Source: Craspedostauros australis
Taxonomy: Eukaryota
Direction: 5' to 3'
Assembly (NCBI GenBank): GCA_030167865.1
Contig: JALAGF010004099.1
Location: forward strand, 1-37,870
Length of the DNA stretch: 37,870 nucleotides
Shown here piece after piece: positions 10,640 to 37,870 of the stretch (position 1 is its first letter; each line of letters begins with the position of its first letter). The notes under the pieces were generated by a model that saw only the letters and a list, made by a program, of their open reading frames with translations, was not told where the DNA came from and made no database searches. The position numbers and the translations under genes were made by a program.

Positions 10640-11677
10640 GGTGCTTTGGGTGTGATGGTGTGATTGTGTGTTGGTGTGAAGTTGGACCAGGGTTTGACAG
10701 TTGATCGATCAGTCGATTGATTGATGGATGGATCGAGTGATGTTGCACTGACCAGTTTGCGAATCTGCCACTTGCCTCGCGAGTGGTATGGTGCCCGTAT
10801 TTCGATGAGAACGCCACAGTGGGAACAACGGGAGCTTTCACGGAGGCACGGAAGGTCGGCAAGAACAGGATAGAAGCTGCCCGGCAGGGATCGTCGGTCG
10901 TAGTTGTGGGGGGCAGAGCTGCTGTGGGTGGCTCGATCGGAAGCTTTTCGGAAATGAATACCTGCGGTACGAGCACAATTGTATGCGCAAGGTATTGGTA
11001 CGAGTAGATCGTATAGTACACGTAGTCGTATAGCAGGCCGCTCTGCCCGTGGGTCGTCGTACTATACTCTGCTTCTATTTGTGTGTTGCCTGGCGCTTCG
11101 GAGGAGATGGGCAGGTCACAAACGAGCCCAGAGAGCCAACAACACAAAACGAGGGAGTTGGGCGAATGGATCGCACGAAGGGATGGAAAATGACTTTTGG
11201 TCTCCGCACGCTCATTCGGGACTCGGACAGTGTCGTACTATTCACGAATTAGACCCGCGCCTGTAAAACCCAATTTTGGCGAACATGGTCCCGTCAGTCC
11301 CGTGGCGCTTGCGAAGTGGCGGGAGTCCTCGTGCTGTACTACTACTAGTATGGTACGTGGACTGAAGCACAGTACGAGGATGTACGTAGTCGTACGAACC
11401 ATGGCAGTCAGCTCCCGCACCAACACAAGGGCGAGTTCTTTTGGTGTTGAATCCAACCGACGAAAGAGATGACGGTGGTGTGTTCGTCATTGGGGAGGAA
11501 GAACGCAAATCCACAAAAGATCCAACACCACCGCCGACCCTGCTGGAACCTCGTTGGAACAGCTGCGGTCAACACGGCGTGTACATATTATATTACATTA
11601 CAGTCTATCACAACAAACAAGGTGAAGCCGAACCAACAAGAACAACGACGATACTTCTGCTGCCGCTGCCGCTAGTG

Positions 11678-13926
11678 ATGATGGCCGGTGCACTCGTTGA
11701 GCTGCCGGAGAGCGTCCAAGGTCAGCTGGCCGTCGTACTGATCGGGATCTACCTCGTGTACCATCTGCTGTCCTCATGGAACGTTGCCCACCATGCGATC
11801 GTCTACTCTGAGTACCTGCTGACATTGCCTGCCTCCATCGAGGACCGTGTGGTGCTGACGGACGTGGAGACGACGGATGACGGCGTTCAGGGCGACGCCT
11901 GCAAGGAGGCCATGCTGGTCGACCCGAAGCGGCCCACGATCCTCAACTGCTACGACCCGTCCACGCAGCAAAAGCTCGGAGAGGTGCCAAACATGAACGC
12001 AGAGCAGGTCCATGCCATGCTGGTGAAGGCCAAGGCCGCGCAGCAGGAGTGGAAGAAGACGACGTTCAAGCAACGACGCCAAGTTCTGCGAACGATGCAG
12101 GCATACATTTGCAAGCACGTGGAAGACATCTGCAGGGTTTCCGCGCGAGAGTCTGGAAAGCCCAAAGTGGACGCCGTGGTGGGAGAGATCATCACGACTT
12201 GCGAGAAACTGCGCACGATCATTGCCAACGGTGAGCTATGGTTGCAGCCGCAGTACCGCGCCACAGGGCCCATGATGATGCACAAGACAGCGTGGGTGGA
12301 GTATGTGCCTTTGGGCATCATCGCACCCATCGCTCCATGGAATTATCCATTCCACAATGTGGTACGTCCATGCTCTGAGGGAGCATCCAAAAAGATGTCC
12401 CAAATTTGTTCGCCAAGGCCGTGTGTGGCGATTGCGTGCTGTGTTGAACTATTGCGGCGCTGGATCTCCATCCATCCTGACCTCTTTGCCCCTTCAATCT
12501 GTTACACCTGTTCATTTCTTGACTCCCCCGGTACATTGGAACGTTGATGTTACGCATGGATCGGCCGCAATCAGATGAACCATGTCATCAGTGGTTTGAT
12601 GGCAGGCAACGCCGTAGTTGGTAAGGTTTCCGAGCATGCCTCGTGGAGTTCGCAGTTCTTCGGATCCATCATCCAAGAGGCGTTGAAGGTGAATGATCAC
12701 AATCCAGATCTGGCTCAGATTGTCACTGGAATGGCCGAGGCAGGGCAGGCACTCGTGTCTGATCCGTTGGTGGACAAGGTCATCTTCACTGGCTCCACAC
12801 CAATTGGCAGAAAGGTCATGCAAGGAGCATCGGCCAACCTCACGCCCGTCATTTTGGAGCTCGGTGGAAAGGACGCGATGGTCGTGATGGATGATGTCAA
12901 TGTAGACACTGCCATTCCATGGGTGATGCGTGGCTGCTTCCAAAACTCGGGTCAGAATTGCGTCGGAGTTGAACGCGTCGTGGTGTACGAATCCGTCCAC
13001 GACGAGTTTTTGGACAAAATCCTTCCCAGGGTCAAGGAACTGAGGCAGGGAATCCCATTGGCATGCTACGGTGCTGATGGCAAAGTTGACTGCGGCAGCA
13101 TGATCATGCCACAGCAAATCGATATCGTGCAGGCACTCGTTGATGACGCAGTGAAGAAGGGTGCCAAGTTGCACTGCGGTGGCAAGCGCAACTCCGGTTT
13201 GGAGGGGCAGTTCTTCGAACCGACTGTGCTGAGGTACGTTGCACGGGACTTCCATGCTGCACCTAATGTTCTCGCGCGACTTCGCATGTGCACGTGTGTT
13301 TCGCTCTGCCAAGTTGCGCCATGTTGCACAACGTATTATCCACTCATCAAATCTCAGCACCCACGTTTTGTTTTCATGCATTTTCTTGCACATGGCGGCA
13401 TGCCGACGTACTACCCTATTGCGACAACAAATGTAGTGGTGTGACGTCGGAGATGGAGATCTTTCACAACGAGGTGTTTGGTCCAGTCATGACCATCATC
13501 AAGGTCCCAGGCGATAGCGACGACAAGTGTGTGGAGATCGTGAACAACTGCGATTTCGGACTTGGATCGTCGCTCTTCTCCGGCAGCGTCTCACGTGGGC
13601 TTTCCGTTGGTCGCAAGTTCCGAACGGGCATGTTGTCCGTCAACGATTATGCATCCAACTACCTGGTCCAGTCTCTGCCGTTCGGTGGCGTGAAGGAAAG
13701 CGGCTTCGGTCGTTTCGCTGGCATCGAAGGCCTTCGGGCGTTGTGTCTGGAGCGCAGCATTGTCGCGGATGCCTACGGCATCAAGACTGCGATTCCAAAG
13801 CCCATCGACTACCCCATCGACATGGACAAAGGTTTTCCGTTCGTGGAGAGCCTCGTTCAGTTGTTCTACAGCGAGAGCCTGTTGGACAAGATTCGTGGTA
13901 TCGTTGGCCTCATCAAGTTTGGATGA
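11678..13926 (+). CDS. Aldehyde dehydrogenase, ALDH22A1/Msc7-like, with N-terminal membrane anchor; 3 exons (11678-12361, 12575-13233, 13437-13926), ~610 aa
   Basis: Introns 12362-12574 (GTACGT..TCAG) and 13234-13436 (GTACGT..GTAG) restore one frame. ALDH motifs: PWNYPF, FTGST, catalytic ELGGK and SGQNC, EVFGPV, LPFGGVKESGFGRFAG. The N-terminus carries a hydrophobic segment. Confidence 0.92.
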
Positions 13927-33657: not shown

Positions 33658-35405
33658 TTGGCCCTGGCGCAAACCAACGAAGCCAATGCAGCCAACATAC
33701 TATGCGTTGAATATGGAGAGCAGCAGCAACAACAGCAACAGCAATCGCAGCAACAGCTTGACATCGTCTATGCTGATGCTATCGCCACGGAGGTCTCCGC
33801 CGACTTCGACACTGCAGACATGTCCACCAACCAGCGTGCGAACGAAGTTCTGCCATCGAACGTTGTTCATGTTCTGGGACTCGTCCACAACCATGAATCG
33901 ACGCCGGCGACTGCACCGGCGGCAGCCGAAGCTTTGCCCACACCATCACATGAACACATTGATTATGACATGACTGGCGGTGATGCAATCGTCGTTGCGA
34001 CCACAGCACCAATTGCAAGCACGAGAGCAGATGGGGACAAAAAATTTCGTAGAGTATATCAAGGGATATTACTGGTGCTTGTGGCCGTCGCCTTTGTTTA
34101 CATCACGGTCGTCATTGCCCCGACCGTGTCGCCCGCGATTGAAGTGTACGGCGACGCGAATCACACGCCTGACGGGGCCAGTTGCGGTTTCCCAGCCCCT
34201 CAGATGCTCCACCGCTGTTCTCAACACCGATGTCAGCGTCAGCGTCAGCGTCAGCGTCACCATCACTGGGCACTTCATTCACAACGACGCCCACACCAGC
34301 GGCAACAGCAACGACGACAGGAGTACCTTCGTGGTTCCCTGCAACACCGTCACAATCGATGTCACCGTCACAAGCGCCACATCAGGCTGGAGCGATTGCT
34401 CCATCGCAGGTATCCAGGGAGGCTTTCGATCGTTTGGTCACTGCGTTGCGTCCAATCTTGATGGGATCGCCAGGCTTCACAGAAGACAGCGCATTCACAG
34501 ACTCTTCGTCCTTCACGCACCAAACGCTGCGATGGATGGCTGACGGCAGAGGCACCGCCGTTCCCATGTCTGAAGTTCTAGCCGAATCCGAGGCTGAACT
34601 CCAGAGAGTTTTGGAAAGATATGTACTCGGTTACGTGTATTTTTCCATGGACGGCCCCAGCTGGAGCCGCGAGTTCAACTTCACGTCCGATACAGATGCA
34701 TGCGATTGGAACAGCAGAGCAGACGCATCGATCGAAGATACTCCCACGAGCGCCTCAAGTTTTGGTTCTGGGTTTGTGGAAGCCATCAGCATGCCTGGCA
34801 ACCAACTGCGAGGAACGTTCCCACCTGAAATCCTGTATTTGAAGCACCTGAGAAGGCTTGATCTAAGTTTGAACGAAATCGAAGGGACAATTCCGACGGA
34901 GATCGGACAGTTGCCGAATTTGGAGCACTTCAGTATGCAGGGCACAGCTATCAACGGGACGATACCAACCGAAGTTGGGTTGTTGCCAAAACTGAAACAC
35001 TTTGATCTCACGACCACAGGCATCAGTGGAGCCATTCCCACGCAAATTGGGAAATTGGGAAAGCTGGAAGCCCTGTATCTGCACGACACTCGCCTGATGG
35101 GCACCATCCCAACAGAGGTTGGCCTCATGGCGAGCTTGGTTTACTTCCACGTATACGACACGGCAATCAGTGGGGAAGTGCCAACACAGATGAGTGCCTT
35201 AGTTCGTCTCGTCGAGTTCGAATTTCAAAATACCCACATCGAAGGCAACGTTGACCCACTGTTTTGCTCCGACGCGGACGGGTCTGCAAATCCAACGAAT
35301 CTGAGGAGCGACTGCCAAGAAGCTGGCGTCAAGCCCCGGCGCGTTATCTGTTCCTGCTGTTCCACATGTGATCCCCATGTGCGCTCGTACGATGCGAATG
35401 AGTGA
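33658..35405 (+). pseudogene. Diatom-type TM + Ser/Thr/Pro stalk + plant-like LRR protein, interrupted by a frameshift near 34173-34230 (pseudogene, sequencing indel or unrecognised intron)
   Basis: One frame gives polyQ, KKFRR and a TM (ILLVLVAVAFVYITVVIA). Another frame (34182-35405) gives the stalk, an LRWM...LERYVLGYVYFSMDGPSW..C.W cap, about six LxxLxLxxNxIxGTIPTEIG repeats and a C..CC..C end. Confidence 0.7.
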
Positions 35406-35559
35406 AGCGTACTAGTGGAGGATTATGACCAGCCGTACGTGCTCCCTCATGTATTTCTCAGATCAATCACTCGTTCATGTCCCCATGTTTTGTTCTTGCT
35501 CGAGACGAAGAGGGAAACCGCATCTGTTCCATTTGCGCTGCTGCCATATCGCATCACTG

Positions 35560-35563
<4 letters not shown>

Positions 35564-35616
<53 letters not shown>
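35564..35616. repeat. (AG)n microsatellite, about 26 units, between convergent genes
   Basis: Read directly from the sequence. Confidence 0.97.
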
Positions 35617-35619
<3 letters not shown>

Positions 35620-35731
35620 GGTACGTGGCTCTCACACAACAAGTCTAATTGTATCTCATTGTAATGTATTGCATTGTATTGTAAGATCTGTAGTTGTACG
35701 TACGATTGAGCGTAGGCGCCACGTCGTATTC

Positions 35732-37870
35732 TCAAACCGCATGCTCGGCTGGCGAGCAATCATCCAGCTGAAGGGCTTCAACGTTCGTCGAATCATCCCC
35801 GACATCCATGATGACATGCTGGGGCCCATGTTCCATGAGCCTTGCGTCCTCTTTCGTCGCGAACGCCTCCATGGCTCCCACGACGCTGCATTGCGGATGC
35901 AAGACACCGCTGAGGTGACATTTCTTGATCGTCACCGTGGAAAACACGCCGTAATGGCCATGGACCCGAGCATCGTCGATCACGCATCCGCCAGCGATGG
36001 TCACGTGGGTTGGTTCGTACAGACGGCAGCCAAAGTAGAGCAACCGACCTTCGGCCTTGACGCCTTGGAAGCGTAGCACCGCGTTCATCATCGACGTTCC
36101 CCACAGCACTGGCGTGAACGACCAGCTCATCACCCAGTGGCAGAAAGACAGGTATACCGTGTACAGCGACAGGCTCCATGGCTTCGTCCTCGTATTCTTT
36201 CCCGTGAACACAATGAACTCTACGATGCGTTGCACGATGATCCAAACGATGGTCTGGATGACAACCGCTGCGGCGAGGACAGGGACCACTCCGGCGGATG
36301 TCTGCGGCTTGGCCATGCTCATCCAGAACTCGTAAGCTGGGATGAAGCTGCCTGCCACGACCATGATCAAGGTGGCGTACAGGACGGTGCTCTTCACCAC
36401 GATCTGCGAAAGTTCCCAACCGGAGAAGGGCTGATTCTGAGGATGTTGCTGTGGTCGAATCAGGTTCTCGGCGACGGTGGTACGCGGCGATACCAGCGCC
36501 TTGCGGACCGTCACGCCCGCCTTGCACGAGACCATGATGCCGATGCTGCTGTCCTCGATCGTGACCATCTTGTACTGATCGCCGTGCTTGATGTCGAAGG
36601 AGAACATGGAGATGAACGACCTGCGGACCCTGATGAGGTCAGCCTTGGACGGAGGGAATTGCACCGCGAAGATCTTCGATCGCAAGTCGACGTCCATACC
36701 GTGGGCCATCATGACGAGGTTCCACAGCATCGAGTTGCTTGTCAGGATGTACAGGAGCATGCAGGATCGGTTGAAGTGATAATCACAAGCCCAGTCCGCG
36801 AGGTCAGACATGATCGTTGCCCTTGCCTTGCCCGGTTTCTTCTTGCCGATCAACACCCATTTGAGGATGATGCTGAACAGCAGCAGGAGCAGCGACGCGA
36901 TTCCGATCGACACGACCCAGTATTGTAGCCTGGAGTATCTCCAGTCTCGTAACTGGCCATTCACCATGATATTGCCGACGAGCATGCAAGAGAATGCAAT
37001 GTACAGCTCCACGACCAACCAAAGTAGCTTCATCGCTCCGATGATGATCCATCGATGGTTATTCGATGATCCTGCCGCTGTGGTTGCTGCTGATGCGGTT
37101 GCCTGCATTGCTTCTGTATTGTTGGCGGCAATGCTTTCTGAACTATCGTTGTGTTTGTCAGTAGTCGCACATGTCGATTTGCTGTCGCTTGAGCTTGCGA
37201 CGAAGGCCGGGTTGCCTTTGATTGCGGTGTTGGACGGCGCCTGCGCACCTTCTGGCATCACACAGAGACGTTGCACCTGACAGTTGGAACCGACCTTCAC
37301 ACCAGGGCAAAGGACGCCCTTGATCTTCGTGCCTGATCCAACTTCTACCTTGCGGAATCTCAGGGTGGGACCTCCCTCCTCGTCCCTCCACGGGCCGAAC
37401 ATGCGGCATCGGATGGGCTCGCCCACCGTGGCATGGGCGCCGATCTTCACCAGATCGAACTCCCGAATGGACACGCAGATGTTCGACGACCGATGGACGT
37501 TCGCGCCCATGAGGTAGCAGTAGAGCGTCATCAGGGGGGTGTTGACGATGAAACGCCCGACGAAGGTCTCCCACACATGGATCAGCCGATCAACGAACCA
37601 CCATCGCAGGAAGTAGATGCTTGTATAGCTCGCGTACCCTTCTCGGTATCTGCCAACGACGATCCACTTCATCAGAATGACCTCCACGGACAGCGCGGTC
37701 AACCAGACTGGAACGACGAAGGGATAGTACGCCCATTTGTACTCGTACTCGTCGGAGGATGTCCCAATGGTGAATTCTGCTTGCGTGTTGCTTCCATTGG
37801 CCAGCATCTTCCCAAATTCGTATGCCGGGATGATGGGAAGCGCAAATAGGAACAGAATGGCAAGGCCACC
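35732..37870 (-). CDS. 3' part of a Pls/PosA-type NRPS-like membrane enzyme (poly-amino-acid synthetase terminal domain); 5' truncated by the window edge
   Basis: The frame is open to the window edge (GGLAILFLFALPIIPAYEFGKML...). There are three repeats of a TM hairpin plus soluble domain. Repeat 1: MKWIVVGRYREG...YFLRWWFVDRL...TPLMTLYCYLMGANV...FDLVKIG. Repeat 2: LKWVLIGKKKPG. Repeat 3: LWGTSMMNAVLRFQGVK...VTIAGGCVIDD. Hexapeptide-like stretches (VEVGSGTKIKGVLCPGVKVGSNCQV) are present. Confidence 0.8.
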   Translation of the reverse strand, partial: GGLAILFLFALPIIPAYEFGKMLANGSNTQAEFTIGTSSDEYEYKWAYYPFVVPVWLTALSVEVILMKWIVVGRYREGYASYTSIYFLRWWFVDRLIHVWETFVGRFIVNTPLMTLYCYLMGANVHRSSNICVSIREFDLVKIGAHATVGEPIRCRMFGPWRDEEGGPTLRFRKVEVGSGTKIKGVLCPGVKVGSNCQVQRLCVMPEGAQAPSNTAIKGNPAFVASSSDSKSTCATTDKHNDSSESIAANNTEAMQATASAATTAAGSSNNHRWIIIGAMKLLWLVVELYIAFSCMLVGNIMVNGQLRDWRYSRLQYWVVSIGIASLLLLLFSIILKWVLIGKKKPGKARATIMSDLADWACDYHFNRSCMLLYILTSNSMLWNLVMMAHGMDVDLRSKIFAVQFPPSKADLIRVRRSFISMFSFDIKHGDQYKMVTIEDSSIGIMVSCKAGVTVRKALVSPRTTVAENLIRPQQHPQNQPFSGWELSQIVVKSTVLYATLIMVVAGSFIPAYEFWMSMAKPQTSAGVVPVLAAAVVIQTIVWIIVQRIVEFIVFTGKNTRTKPWSLSLYTVYLSFCHWVMSWSFTPVLWGTSMMNAVLRFQGVKAEGRLLYFGCRLYEPTHVTIAGGCVIDDARVHGHYGVFSTVTIKKCHLSGVLHPQCSVVGAMEAFATKEDARLMEHGPQHVIMDVGDDSTNVEALQLDDCSPAEHAV

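What the first reader, a model, noticed from the sequence alone, without database searches (positions are those of the whole stretch)
35732..37870. Pls/PosA-like homopoly(amino acid) synthetase terminal domain in an algal nuclear genome
Seen: at least 712 uninterrupted codons containing three tandem units of two TM helices plus a soluble acyltransferase/hexapeptide-like domain. The motifs KWxxxGRY/KWxxxGK, WWFVDR, TP/GTS..LxGAxV and a repeated IPAYEF recur across units. Established: this is the C-terminal architecture of epsilon-poly-L-lysine synthetase (Pls) and related single-module membrane NRPSs (A-T-C1-C2-C3 with six TM helices), known mainly from bacteria and some fungi. Inference: the full gene should carry adenylation and carrier domains beyond the right edge. 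It may make an isopeptide polymer or transfer activated amino or acyl groups across a membrane. In a diatom such a product could act in antibacterial defence, adhesion or silica-associated polycations, though this is speculative. The lack of introns here fits bacterial transfer but does not prove it, because several other genes in the window are also intronless.
Basis: partly seen in the sequence, partly recalled or inferred. Interest (0 to 1): 0.85.

Follow-up and report, generated by a model that had tools for sequence, protein, structure and literature searches.

The report
Diatom fatty-acyl-loading cousin of polylysine synthetase
This is the membrane-embedded back half of a diatom enzyme distantly related to bacterial polylysine synthetase, but its close relatives load a fatty or other carboxylic acid rather than an amino acid, so it probably makes an unknown acylated product rather than a poly-amino-acid.

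Summary
The 712-codon open frame (35732-37870, minus strand, running off the right edge) is real. It is a distant homologue of the Pls/PosA terminal domain: TIGR02353 E 5.7e-17, but 61 bits against a cut-off of 423. It is not a member of that family. In terminal-domain trees, all amino-acid-loading Pls/PosA proteins form one clade (support 100). The window protein sits in a separate clade (support 100) whose N-terminally complete members (62 of 75 other rows) all carry a fatty-acyl-AMP-ligase (FAAL) type loading domain; the carrier domain was confirmed in 5 of 5 relatives scanned. This FAAL-type lineage has 20 paralogues in Seminavis robusta and also occurs in Chaetoceros, a choanoflagellate, Picozoa and a pelagophyte. 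Only unit 1 keeps a clear hexapeptide signature; units 2 and 3 are strongly diverged. One histidine (His639, unit 3) is conserved in both lineages. Codon usage and neighbouring genes show a native diatom nuclear gene. Best reading: a FAAL-carrier-loaded, membrane-embedded acyltransferase. A homopoly(amino acid) product is unlikely. The N-terminal ~720-815 residues lie outside the window and are inferred from relatives.

The parts
35732..37870 (-). Open reading frame, 712 codons plus a TGA stop (35732-35734). It is 5'-open at the window edge. It is the C-terminal part of a larger gene.
   Evidence: Residue 1 aligns to about residue 724-817 of full-length relatives.
37808..37870 (-). End of transmembrane helix 1 (residues 1-21), including IPAYEF. 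It lies upstream of the first in-frame ATG (residue 22, 37805-37807).
   Evidence: hydrophobic segment. P15 is invariant in 13 of 13 FAAL-type rows. So the coding sequence continues upstream of Met22.
37652..37729 (-). Transmembrane helix 2 (residues 48-73), ending in KWIVVGR.
   Evidence: K68 is conserved at >=85% in both lineages.
37196..37651 (-). Soluble unit 1 (residues 74-225): two helices plus a left-handed beta-helix. It is the best conserved unit and includes W90 W91, G122 and D139.
   Evidence: Diatom U1 against bacterial/fungal U1: E 7.2e-35. LbH acyltransferase fold matches at Z 10-12. Period-6 signal in 32 of 38 rows. Weak Pfam hexapeptide hits at 172-217.
37055..37195 (-). Low-complexity Ser/Thr/Ala-rich linker (residues 226-272), modelled with low confidence.
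   Evidence: pLDDT <50 at residues 232-266. The A222-to-K281 interval is 59 residues here against 20-30 in the 37 other diatom-clade rows.
36836..37054 (-). Transmembrane helices 3 and 4 (residues 273-304 and 313-345), ending in KWVLIGKKKPGK.
36413..36835 (-). Soluble unit 2 (residues 346-486). It is a diverged homologue of unit 1 and includes W360, D363, G391 and D411.
   Evidence: U1-U2 E 1.3e-10; against the bacterial/fungal units only 1e-9 to 3e-11. No period-6 signal.
36203..36412 (-). Transmembrane helices 5 and 6 (residues 487-514 and 523-556). TM5 ends in the second IPAYEF.
35792..36202 (-). Soluble unit 3 (residues 557-693). It is a diverged homologue of unit 1 and includes G591, G603, H639 and E680.
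   Evidence: U1-U3 E 7e-11 over 167 columns, including the beta region. Period-6 z is 2.2 in the window but the clade mean is 0.9.
35954..35956 (-). Codon for His639, the candidate catalytic base (inferred).
   Evidence: Conserved at >=85% in both lineages. Invariant in 13 of 13 and the only invariant column in 27 of 27 sequences. It is present in unit 3 only. The catalytic role itself is not tested.

Best explanation
The ORF is the C-terminal, membrane-embedded catalytic half of a single-module, carrier-protein-dependent synthetase. That synthetase belongs to a protist lineage that is sister to bacterial and fungal Pls/PosA.

Shown:
- Six helices in three hairpins carry three homologous soluble units.
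- Unit 1 is a left-handed beta-helix of the acyltransferase type. Units 2 and 3 are diverged copies.
- A small core of residues, including one histidine in unit 3, is shared with Pls/PosA.

Shown for relatives, inferred for this gene: about 720-815 residues beyond the window edge encode a FAAL-type adenylation domain and a phosphopantetheine carrier domain.

Inferred mechanism:
1. The FAAL domain adenylates a fatty or other carboxylic acid and loads it on the carrier.
2. The carrier delivers the thioester to the cytosolic face of the pseudo-trimeric beta-helix assembly.
3. A single active site uses His639 as base to transfer the acyl group to an amine or hydroxyl acceptor.
4. The helical bundle passes the product into or across the membrane.

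The product is therefore more likely an N- or O-acylated molecule or lipid than a cationic homopoly(amino acid).
For: Architecture and fold. The published PosA model has the same plan (PMC10522769, passages read).

Homology to Pls/PosA: TIGR02353 E 5.7e-17; named bacterial Pls/PosA proteins hit at E 1e-25 to 1e-8.

FAAL-type loading in relatives:
- 5 of 5 scanned relatives have PF00501 + PF23024 + PF00550.
- Their best NCBIfam match is fatty-acid--AMP ligase at 280-312 bits. TIGR01733 scores 112-138 bits against a cut-off of 317.
- The nearest solved structures to the N-half of P0004 are FAALs, E 1e-84 to 1e-36.
- With local HMMs, 81 proteins typed FAAL, 61 amino-acid type and 22 incomplete or neither. 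No complete N-terminus was ambiguous.

Separate lineage:
- FastTree, 165 rows: all 61 amino-acid-type rows form one clade (support 100). The window sits in a 76-row clade (support 100) holding 62 FAAL-type and 13 incomplete rows.
- IQ-TREE on 41 of those rows: the 16 amino-acid-type rows lie on one side of a branch (SH-aLRT 100).

Functional gene: 57 of 59 clade-conserved positions are kept.

Different chemistry: many residues conserved at >=85% in the amino-acid type, a good share charged and in U2/U3, are not conserved in the FAAL type.

Topology: K+R counts of 3, 6 and 3 follow TM2, TM4 and TM6, against 1, 2 and 1 in the hairpin loops.

Modular use of the terminal domain: one relative has PKS domains upstream (P0078). 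Others have FAD-oxidase inserts or a C-terminal alpha/beta-hydrolase.

Native diatom gene.
Against: - The window does not contain the N-terminal half, so the FAAL and carrier domains of this particular gene are inferred, not seen.
- No substrate, acceptor or product is known for any member of the FAAL-type lineage. I found no experimental paper on it.
- A FAAL-type domain could activate a bifunctional acid (amino or hydroxy fatty acid), which would allow Pls-like polymerisation.
- The catalytic role of His639 rests on conservation and on a recalled analogy to LbH acyltransferases. No Pls/PosA catalytic residue is defined in the texts I could read.
- 13 of the 75 other rows in the window's clade lack a visible loading domain. 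They look truncated but could include genuinely shorter forms.
Confidence: 0.6

Rival explanations
1. One reading: a genuine Pls/PosA-type homopoly(amino acid) synthetase. It would load a diamino acid and polymerise it through isopeptide bonds into a secreted polycation.
For: - Homology to the Pls/PosA terminal domain.
- The same six-helix, three-unit plan.
- A shared conserved core including His639.
- The Atlas places the Seminavis relative P0016 next to Pls/PosA and delta-poly-L-ornithine synthetase clusters.
Against: - TIGR02353 scores 61 bits against a cut-off of 423.
- The loading domain is FAAL-type in 62 of 62 complete members of the window's clade.
- TIGR01733 is below its cut-off in 5 of 5 relatives.
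- The terminal domain lies outside the amino-acid-type clade (support 100).
- Residues conserved in the amino-acid type in U2/U3 are not kept.
Confidence: 0.12
2. A polymerase of bifunctional fatty acids. The FAAL domain would load an omega-amino or hydroxy fatty acid. The terminal domain would then work iteratively, as in Pls, to extrude a polyamide or polyester.
For: - The terminal domain is homologous to an iterative polymerase.
- FAAL-type loading.
- FAD amine-oxidase-like inserts in some paralogues suggest the tethered acyl group is modified.
- There are 20 paralogues in the one Seminavis genome.
Against: There is no direct evidence. Units 2 and 3 are much more diverged than in the known polymerases: 1e-10 to 7e-5 between units against 1e-26 to 1e-42. 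That argues against an unchanged polymerase mechanism.
Confidence: 0.12
3. A stand-alone membrane acyltransferase-like protein. It would have no fused loading or carrier domain, starting shortly upstream of the window edge or at Met22.
For: - 13 of the 75 other rows in the window's clade show no or only part of a loading domain.
- An in-frame ATG exists at residue 22.
Against: - Residues 1-21 are the conserved end of TM1, and P15 is invariant in 13 of 13 rows. Starting at Met22 would leave five helices.
- The sister protein P0002 is full length with a FAAL domain, a DIP2-type C-lobe and a near-threshold PP-binding match.
- The short forms come from short contigs (4-6 kb where looked up).
Confidence: 0.08
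4. An artefact: bacterial contamination, a chimeric assembly, or a decaying pseudogene.
For: The gene shows no intron over 2.1 kb. No read or contig bridges the microsatellite between it and the neighbouring gene.
Against: - RSCU correlates at r 0.87 with the pooled neighbours, and GC is even across the window.
- The neighbours are eukaryotic gene types, and the NAPRTase is closest to raphid pennate diatoms.
- Every named member of the FAAL-type lineage is eukaryotic.
- 57 of 59 conserved positions are intact and there is no stop in 712 codons.
Confidence: 0.03

Closest known systems
Epsilon-poly-L-lysine synthetase Pls (Streptomyces albulus) and delta-poly-L-ornithine synthetase PosA (Acinetobacter baumannii); NCBIfam TIGR02353 terminal domain
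   Same: A single-module, carrier-dependent enzyme whose C-terminal ~700 residues have six membrane helices in three pairs, alternating with three homologous soluble units. It shares a conserved core (K68, W90/W91, D139, W360/D363, H639, E680). The modelled fold plan is the same.
   Different: - The loading domain of relatives is FAAL-type, not an amino-acid adenylation domain.
- The TIGR02353 score is far below its cut-off.
- It falls in a separate clade.
- Units 2 and 3 are strongly diverged and lack the residues conserved in the amino-acid type.
- All named members are eukaryotic protists.
Fatty-acyl-AMP ligases that load carrier proteins (FadD32, FadD28, FadD23, Legionella FAAL 3KXW, E. 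coli FAAL 3PBK, PKS loading FAAL 7R7E)
   Same: The N-terminal half of the full-length relatives matches these at E 1e-84 to 1e-36 and is followed by a PP-binding domain.
   Different: By recall, the known FAALs hand their acyl group to PKS, NRPS or lipid-assembly partners. Here the partner is a fused membrane LbH assembly. This part lies outside the window.
Left-handed beta-helix (hexapeptide) acyltransferases, e.g. maltose/galactoside O-acetyltransferases, QdtC, serine acetyltransferase, LpxD
   Same: Unit 1 has this fold: 3ECT Z 11.9, 3SRT 11.6, 3FS8 11.5, 4N69 11.3 and the LpxD-ACP complex 4IHF 8.0. Three beta-helices packed around a threefold axis is the arrangement the PosA paper compares with sugar-nucleotide acyltransferases. 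That LpxA and LpxD use acyl-ACP donors and an interface His is recalled, not tested.
   Different: Here there are three fused, unequal units on a six-helix membrane base, not a soluble homotrimer. Pfam hexapeptide hits are below threshold.
PtNRPS1 (A-T-R1-R2) of Phaeodactylum tricornutum
   Same: It is another single-module NRPS-like enzyme of diatoms (PMC13194791, passages read).
   Different: It has an unrelated offloading part (two reductase domains), activates an amino acid, and is soluble.

Membership tests
Pls/PosA family (TIGR02353 terminal domain) | Terminal-domain HMM score at or above the curated cut-off (423.1 bits) | tested here: not met
   The window protein scores 61.3 bits, E 5.7e-17, over two stretches, the best covering residues 65-398. 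The Seminavis relative P0016 scores 93.1 bits. The genuine member P0060 scores 852.6 bits.
Pls/PosA family | Six transmembrane helices in three pairs, alternating with three homologous soluble units | tested here: met
   It matches the description in PMC10522769.
Pls/PosA family | N-terminal amino-acid adenylation domain (TIGR01733, cut-off 317.4) plus a carrier domain | not testable with these tools
   This part lies beyond the window edge and no genome is held. In 5 of 5 close relatives the carrier domain is present, but TIGR01733 reaches only 112-138 bits and the best match is fatty-acid--AMP ligase. So the feature is not met in the relatives.
Pls/PosA family | Terminal domain groups inside the clade of amino-acid-loading members | tested here: not met
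   FastTree: all 61 amino-acid-type rows form one clade (support 100) and the window lies on the other side. IQ-TREE on 41 rows: SH-aLRT 100. Both trees are unrooted.
Pls/PosA family | Product is an isopeptide-linked homopoly(amino acid) | not testable with these tools
   This needs biochemistry.
Unnamed protist FAAL-carrier-LbH3 lineage (Seminavis, Chaetoceros and others) | Terminal domain inside the clade, with clade-conserved residues kept | tested here: met
   The window sits in a 76-row clade (support 100) as sister to P0002 (support 100). It matches 57 of the 59 positions conserved at >=90%.
Unnamed protist FAAL-carrier-LbH3 lineage | FAAL-type adenylation domain and PP-binding domain upstream in the same protein | not testable with these tools
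   This part is off the window. It is present in 62 of the 75 other clade rows; the remaining 13 are N-terminally incomplete.
Left-handed beta-helix (hexapeptide) acyltransferase superfamily | LbH fold with period-6 aliphatic repeats | tested here: inconclusive
   Unit 1 meets it: Z 10-12 and a period-6 signal in 32 of 38 rows. Pfam hexapeptide models are below their cut-offs. Units 2 and 3 show no family-wide period-6 signal, and a separate fold search could not be run.

The most novel reading that the evidence does not exclude
The FAAL-type lineage is a protist-wide class of membrane synthetases. It would load bifunctional (amino or hydroxy) fatty acids, or acylate polyamines, and extrude a lipid-derived polyamide, polyester or acyl-polyamine material. 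That would be a eukaryotic biopolymer or surface-lipid pathway with no characterised counterpart. Its expansion to 20 paralogues in the benthic diatom Seminavis could be linked to adhesion, signalling or defence.
Probability: 0.12. Interest if true: 0.9.

Novelty: new variant of a known kind. Interest (0 to 1): 0.62.

Why it matters
The Pls/PosA terminal domain is known only as a polymerase of diamino acids in bacteria and some fungi, and has no experimental structure. Here the same membrane machine is joined in protists to a fatty-acyl-AMP ligase. The terminal domains of the two loading types form separate clades, so the split looks old. This suggests the domain is a general carrier-dependent offloading module, not solely a polylysine polymerase.

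It also gives a concrete partner for much of the FAAL expansion in diatoms that the FAALPred paper reported without, in its main text, naming a downstream partner. Public records label these proteins FadD21 or DltA-like, which hides the fusion. The product is unknown, and ordinary loading assays and lipidomics could find it.

Tried and rejected
- Own genome: none is held, so the locus could not be extended.
A single-protein scan with the FAAL-type P0152 found 6 pattern matches but no relative. Whether bacteria have FAAL-type versions therefore stays open.
- Sequencing runs: no RNA holder is listed. The one holder, X1 (kind guessed), has contigs over 34000-34032, 34059-35555 and 35719-35997 only. 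Nothing bridges the microsatellite and nothing covers 35998-37870. So the reads give no verdict on expression or on a chimeric join.
- ESM Atlas does not hold the window protein. I used the stored relative P0016 instead.
- PDB by sequence and by fold holds no entry with the whole architecture. Only single LbH domains match.
I used a period-6 test instead.
- Retained in-frame intron in the long linker: the only GT..AG candidates have a weak GTGCGA donor and there is no RNA evidence. I judge it unlikely but it is not excluded.
- Earlier scan notes: three look-ups returned nothing.
- Literature:
  - 'poly-L-lysine synthetase' + diatom: 0 papers.
  - NAPAA + diatom: 3 papers, none relevant by title and abstract start.
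  - FAAL with polylysine-synthetase, Pls-like or hexapeptide terms: 20 papers hold two of the five terms. Among the 15 listed, none combines FAAL with a Pls term.
  - The Seminavis genome paper's main text has 0 occurrences of six relevant terms.
The FAALPred domain-architecture tables could already list this fusion.
Full report
**Observation.** The minus strand carries an open frame from 37870 down to a TGA at 35732-35734. It has 712 codons and no start within the window. A hydropathy scan finds six hydrophobic segments: residues 1-21 (cut by the window edge), 48-73, 273-304, 313-345, 487-514 and 523-556.

An AlphaFold2 model built on a 56-sequence alignment is confident (mean pLDDT 88, pTM 0.88). 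It repeats one plan three times: two long helices, two shorter helices, then a beta-rich coil. Confidence is low only at residues 28-31, 232-266 and 694-712. Profile-profile comparison of the three units within the diatom clade gives E 1.3e-10 (U1-U2), 7e-11 (U1-U3) and 6.6e-5 (U2-U3). So the tandem triplication is real.

The motif claims hold only in part:
- KWxxxG[RK] occurs twice.
- IPAYEF occurs twice.
- WWFVDR occurs once.
- One glycine per unit is invariant (G122, G391, G603).

**Is it Pls/PosA-like?** Yes by descent, no by membership. NCBIfam TIGR02353 matches at E 5.7e-17, but with 61.3 bits against a curated cut-off of 423.1. A genuine member, P0060 from Sphingomonas, scores 852.6 bits. 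Pfam gives only sub-threshold hexapeptide hits at residues 172-217.

PDB holds nothing with the whole architecture:
- By sequence there are only weak hexapeptide transferase hits, E >= 0.027.
- By Foldseek, 1 match reaches E <= 0.001, and the top matches are single LbH domains.
- By an independent aligner over 48,161 chains, 41 reach Z >= 8. The top rows are LbH acyl/acetyltransferases aligned within about residues 64-274: 3ECT Z 11.9, 3SRT 11.6, QdtC 11.5, serine acetyltransferase 11.3, and the LpxD-ACP complex 8.0.

The PosA paper (PMC10522769, passages read) states that no experimental structure of this domain exists. It describes AlphaFold and RoseTTAFold models with six bent helices under three five-turn left-handed beta-helices in pseudo-threefold packing. 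My model has the same plan.

**What lies beyond the window edge?** The word-indexed search restricted to longer proteins returned 96 hits.
- The top 40 (E 1.9e-175 to 1.7e-67, 29-42% identity, 79-99% query coverage) are proteins of 1296-2550 aa.
- They include 20 from Seminavis robusta and one from Chaetoceros tenuissimus.
- By my count of that table, 28 of the 40 list PF23024 and none lists PF13193.
- Of the other 56, none lists PF23024 and 49 list PF13193. These include the named bacterial Pls/PosA and three fungal proteins.

Direct scans confirm the difference. Five of five diatom-clade relatives have AMP-binding, the DIP2-type C-lobe and PP-binding; PP-binding is just under the Pfam cut-off in P0002. 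Their best NCBIfam model is fatty-acid--AMP ligase (280-312 bits), and the amino-acid adenylation model reaches only 112-138 bits against 317.4. The nearest solved structures to the N-half of P0004 are FAALs (7R7E, 3KXW, FadD32, FadD23, FadD28, 3PBK). None of the 39 PDB matches reaches beyond about residue 598.

Window residue 1 aligns to about residue 724-817 of full-length relatives. So some 720-815 codons are missing. The first in-frame ATG (residue 22) is not the start. Residues 1-21 are the conserved end of TM1, and P15 is invariant in 13 of 13 FAAL-type sequences.

**A separate lineage.** The exhaustive search found 990 relatives at E <= 1e-3, 444 at <= 1e-10 and 106 at <= 1e-30. From the 244 proteins then held, I kept those whose terminal domain was covered from HMM position <= 40 to >= 600, and dropped four near-duplicates (P0238, P0239, P0242, P0244). 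That left 165 rows.

A row counted as one type if its score exceeded 250 and was more than twice the other score. The result was 81 FAAL-type, 61 amino-acid type, 22 incomplete or neither, plus the window.

In the FastTree tree of the terminal domain alone:
- All 61 amino-acid-type rows fall in one clade (support 100, stem length 0.82).
- 79 of 81 FAAL-type rows lie across a starred branch. The other two (P0222, P0223) are long-branched and unresolved.
- The window sits in a 76-row clade (support 100) of 62 FAAL-type and 13 incomplete rows, as sister to P0002 (support 100).

IQ-TREE on 41 of the 165 rows gives the same split: 16 amino-acid-type rows on one side of a branch, SH-aLRT 100, length 0.99. 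Both trees are unrooted, so I draw no direction of transfer.

Named FAAL-type members outside diatoms come from the choanoflagellate Salpingoeca kvevrii, Picozoa sp. SAG31 and the pelagophyte Chrysophaeum taylorii. No named bacterial protein in my sets is FAAL-type. My attempts to scan prokaryote genomes were weak, so bacterial members are not excluded.

**How the terminal domain differs from Pls/PosA.** These comparisons use 38 diatom-clade rows and 16 amino-acid-type rows (13 bacterial or unnamed, 3 fungal). Two intermediate rows (P0042, P0045) were left out.
- In the bacterial and fungal proteins the three units resemble each other at E 1e-26 to 1e-42. In the diatom clade the figures are 1e-10 to 7e-5.
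- Diatom U1 matches bacterial U1 at 7.2e-35. U2 and U3 match any bacterial unit only at 6e-5 to 3e-11, with no clear one-to-one partner.
- The period-6 aliphatic signal of a left-handed beta-helix is family-wide only in U1: mean z 2.9, with z > 2 in 32 of 38 rows. U2 gives 0.5 (3 of 38) and U3 gives 0.9 (5 of 38). Controls give 0.2-0.4.
- Twenty-two positions are conserved at >= 85% with the same residue in both lineages. They include K68, W90, W91, D139, W360, D363, H639 and E680.
- Many residues conserved at >= 85% in the amino-acid type are not conserved in the FAAL type. A good share are charged and lie in U2/U3: D422, R440, R476, R491, K542, R561, D621, R644, K647.
- His639 is the only invariant column in a 27-sequence alignment of units 2-3. 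It has no counterpart in unit 1.

**Is the gene native and alive?**
- The window keeps 57 of the 59 positions conserved at >= 90% in its clade.
- GC is even across the window, 0.50-0.58.
- RSCU correlates at r 0.87 with the pooled neighbouring genes, as high as any neighbour scores, and GC3 is 0.74 against 0.57-0.71.
- The neighbours are eukaryotic gene types: DnaJ, a split aldehyde dehydrogenase, a lysine methyltransferase, DcpS/HIT, NAPRTase and an LRR protein.
- The NAPRTase's named best hits are raphid pennate diatoms: Nitzschia inconspicua 63%, Cylindrotheca 63%, Phaeodactylum 57%. The best hit overall is unnamed at 68%.
- A 103-aa public fragment is 99% identical to residues 610-712.

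Reads gave no verdict on expression or on the join to the neighbouring gene.

**Mechanism.** Shown:
- The fold plan.
- The homology to a carrier-dependent membrane enzyme.
- The FAAL-plus-carrier front half in all complete clade members.

Also shown is that the terminal domain is used modularly. One relative (P0078) has PKS domains and a carrier upstream. Others insert an FAD amine-oxidase-like domain (P0012, P0100, P0108) or add an alpha/beta-hydrolase (P0100). An amino-acid-type member (P0200) carries a phosphopantetheinyl transferase.

Inferred:
- The soluble units face the cytosol, the same side as the loading domains. K+R counts of 3, 6 and 3 follow TM2, TM4 and TM6, against 1, 2 and 1 in the hairpin loops.
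- The carrier brings an acyl thioester to a single active site that uses His639 as base. By recall, this is what LbH acyltransferases such as LpxA and LpxD do with acyl-ACP.
- The acyl group goes to an amine or hydroxyl acceptor, and the helices handle a membrane-bound or exported product.

A plain fatty acid has no nucleophile, so simple Pls-like polymerisation is unlikely. It remains possible if the substrate is an amino or hydroxy fatty acid.

**Literature.**
- FAALPred (PMC12820801, passages read) reports that diatoms have the most FAALs among eukaryotes, with 16 in Seminavis. Its main text has 0 occurrences of 'Pls' and of 'hexapeptide'. Its supplements were closed.
- A 2026 JACS Au paper (PMC13291983, passages) notes an A-PCP-Pls/PosA-like NRPS in a bacterial cluster.
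- The epsilon-PL review (PMC8506220, passages) and the PosA paper give the known architecture. I saw Yamanaka 2008, Kito 2013 and Hamano 2014 only as citations there.
- The diatom NRPS-like enzyme PtNRPS1 has a different architecture (PMC13194791, passages).
- Searches for a Pls-type enzyme in diatoms, or for a FAAL coupled to a Pls-type domain, found nothing relevant.

**Verdict.** This is a real, native diatom gene fragment. It is a distant relative of Pls/PosA but not a member of that family. It belongs to an uncharacterised, widely mislabelled protist lineage in which the Pls-type membrane domain is fed by a fatty-acyl-AMP ligase. It is a new variant of a known kind. I rate interest moderate to high because the product class is unknown and testable.

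Noticed in passing
window 35564-35615: A 52-bp (GA)n/(CT)n microsatellite lies about 120 bp downstream of the stop codon, between this gene and the convergent LRR gene. The contigs of run X1 break there.
   Followed up: partly
window 37055-37195: The linker between unit 1 and TM3 is a Ser/Thr/Ala-rich stretch. The A222-K281 interval is 59 residues here against 20-30 in the 37 other clade members. It is either a lineage-specific insertion or, less likely, a retained in-frame intron with a weak GTGCGA donor.
   Followed up: partly
window 34182-35405 (+): The tail-to-tail neighbour is a leucine-rich-repeat protein. A 1533-nt contig of run X1 covers 34059-35555 with no differences. The overlapping ORF 33658-34461 carries a poly-Gln run.
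   Followed up: no
window 11441-12547 (+): This ORF matches only profile positions 8-145 of 461 of the aldehyde dehydrogenase model. That suggests a gene split by introns, so introns do occur in this window.
   Followed up: no
protein P0078 (2837 aa, not in the window): The same terminal domain (183 bits on my local HMM) sits behind PKS domains (AT, DH, carrier), with a flavin monooxygenase-like region further upstream. A terminal reductase domain follows it. So the domain can also be fed by a polyketide line.
   Followed up: partly
proteins P0012, P0100, P0108, P0200 (not in the window): Fusion variants. P0012, P0100 and P0108 have an FAD amine-oxidase/DAO-like domain after the FAAL domain. 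P0100 has a C-terminal alpha/beta-hydrolase. The amino-acid-type member P0200 has a C-terminal 4'-phosphopantetheinyl transferase.
   Followed up: no
Seminavis robusta proteins P0016-P0041 (not in the window): Public names for this family ('fatty-acid--CoA ligase FadD21', 'D-alanine--D-alanyl carrier protein ligase', 'MSMEG_5435') describe at most the N-terminal half. They hide the Pls-type membrane domain.
   Followed up: partly
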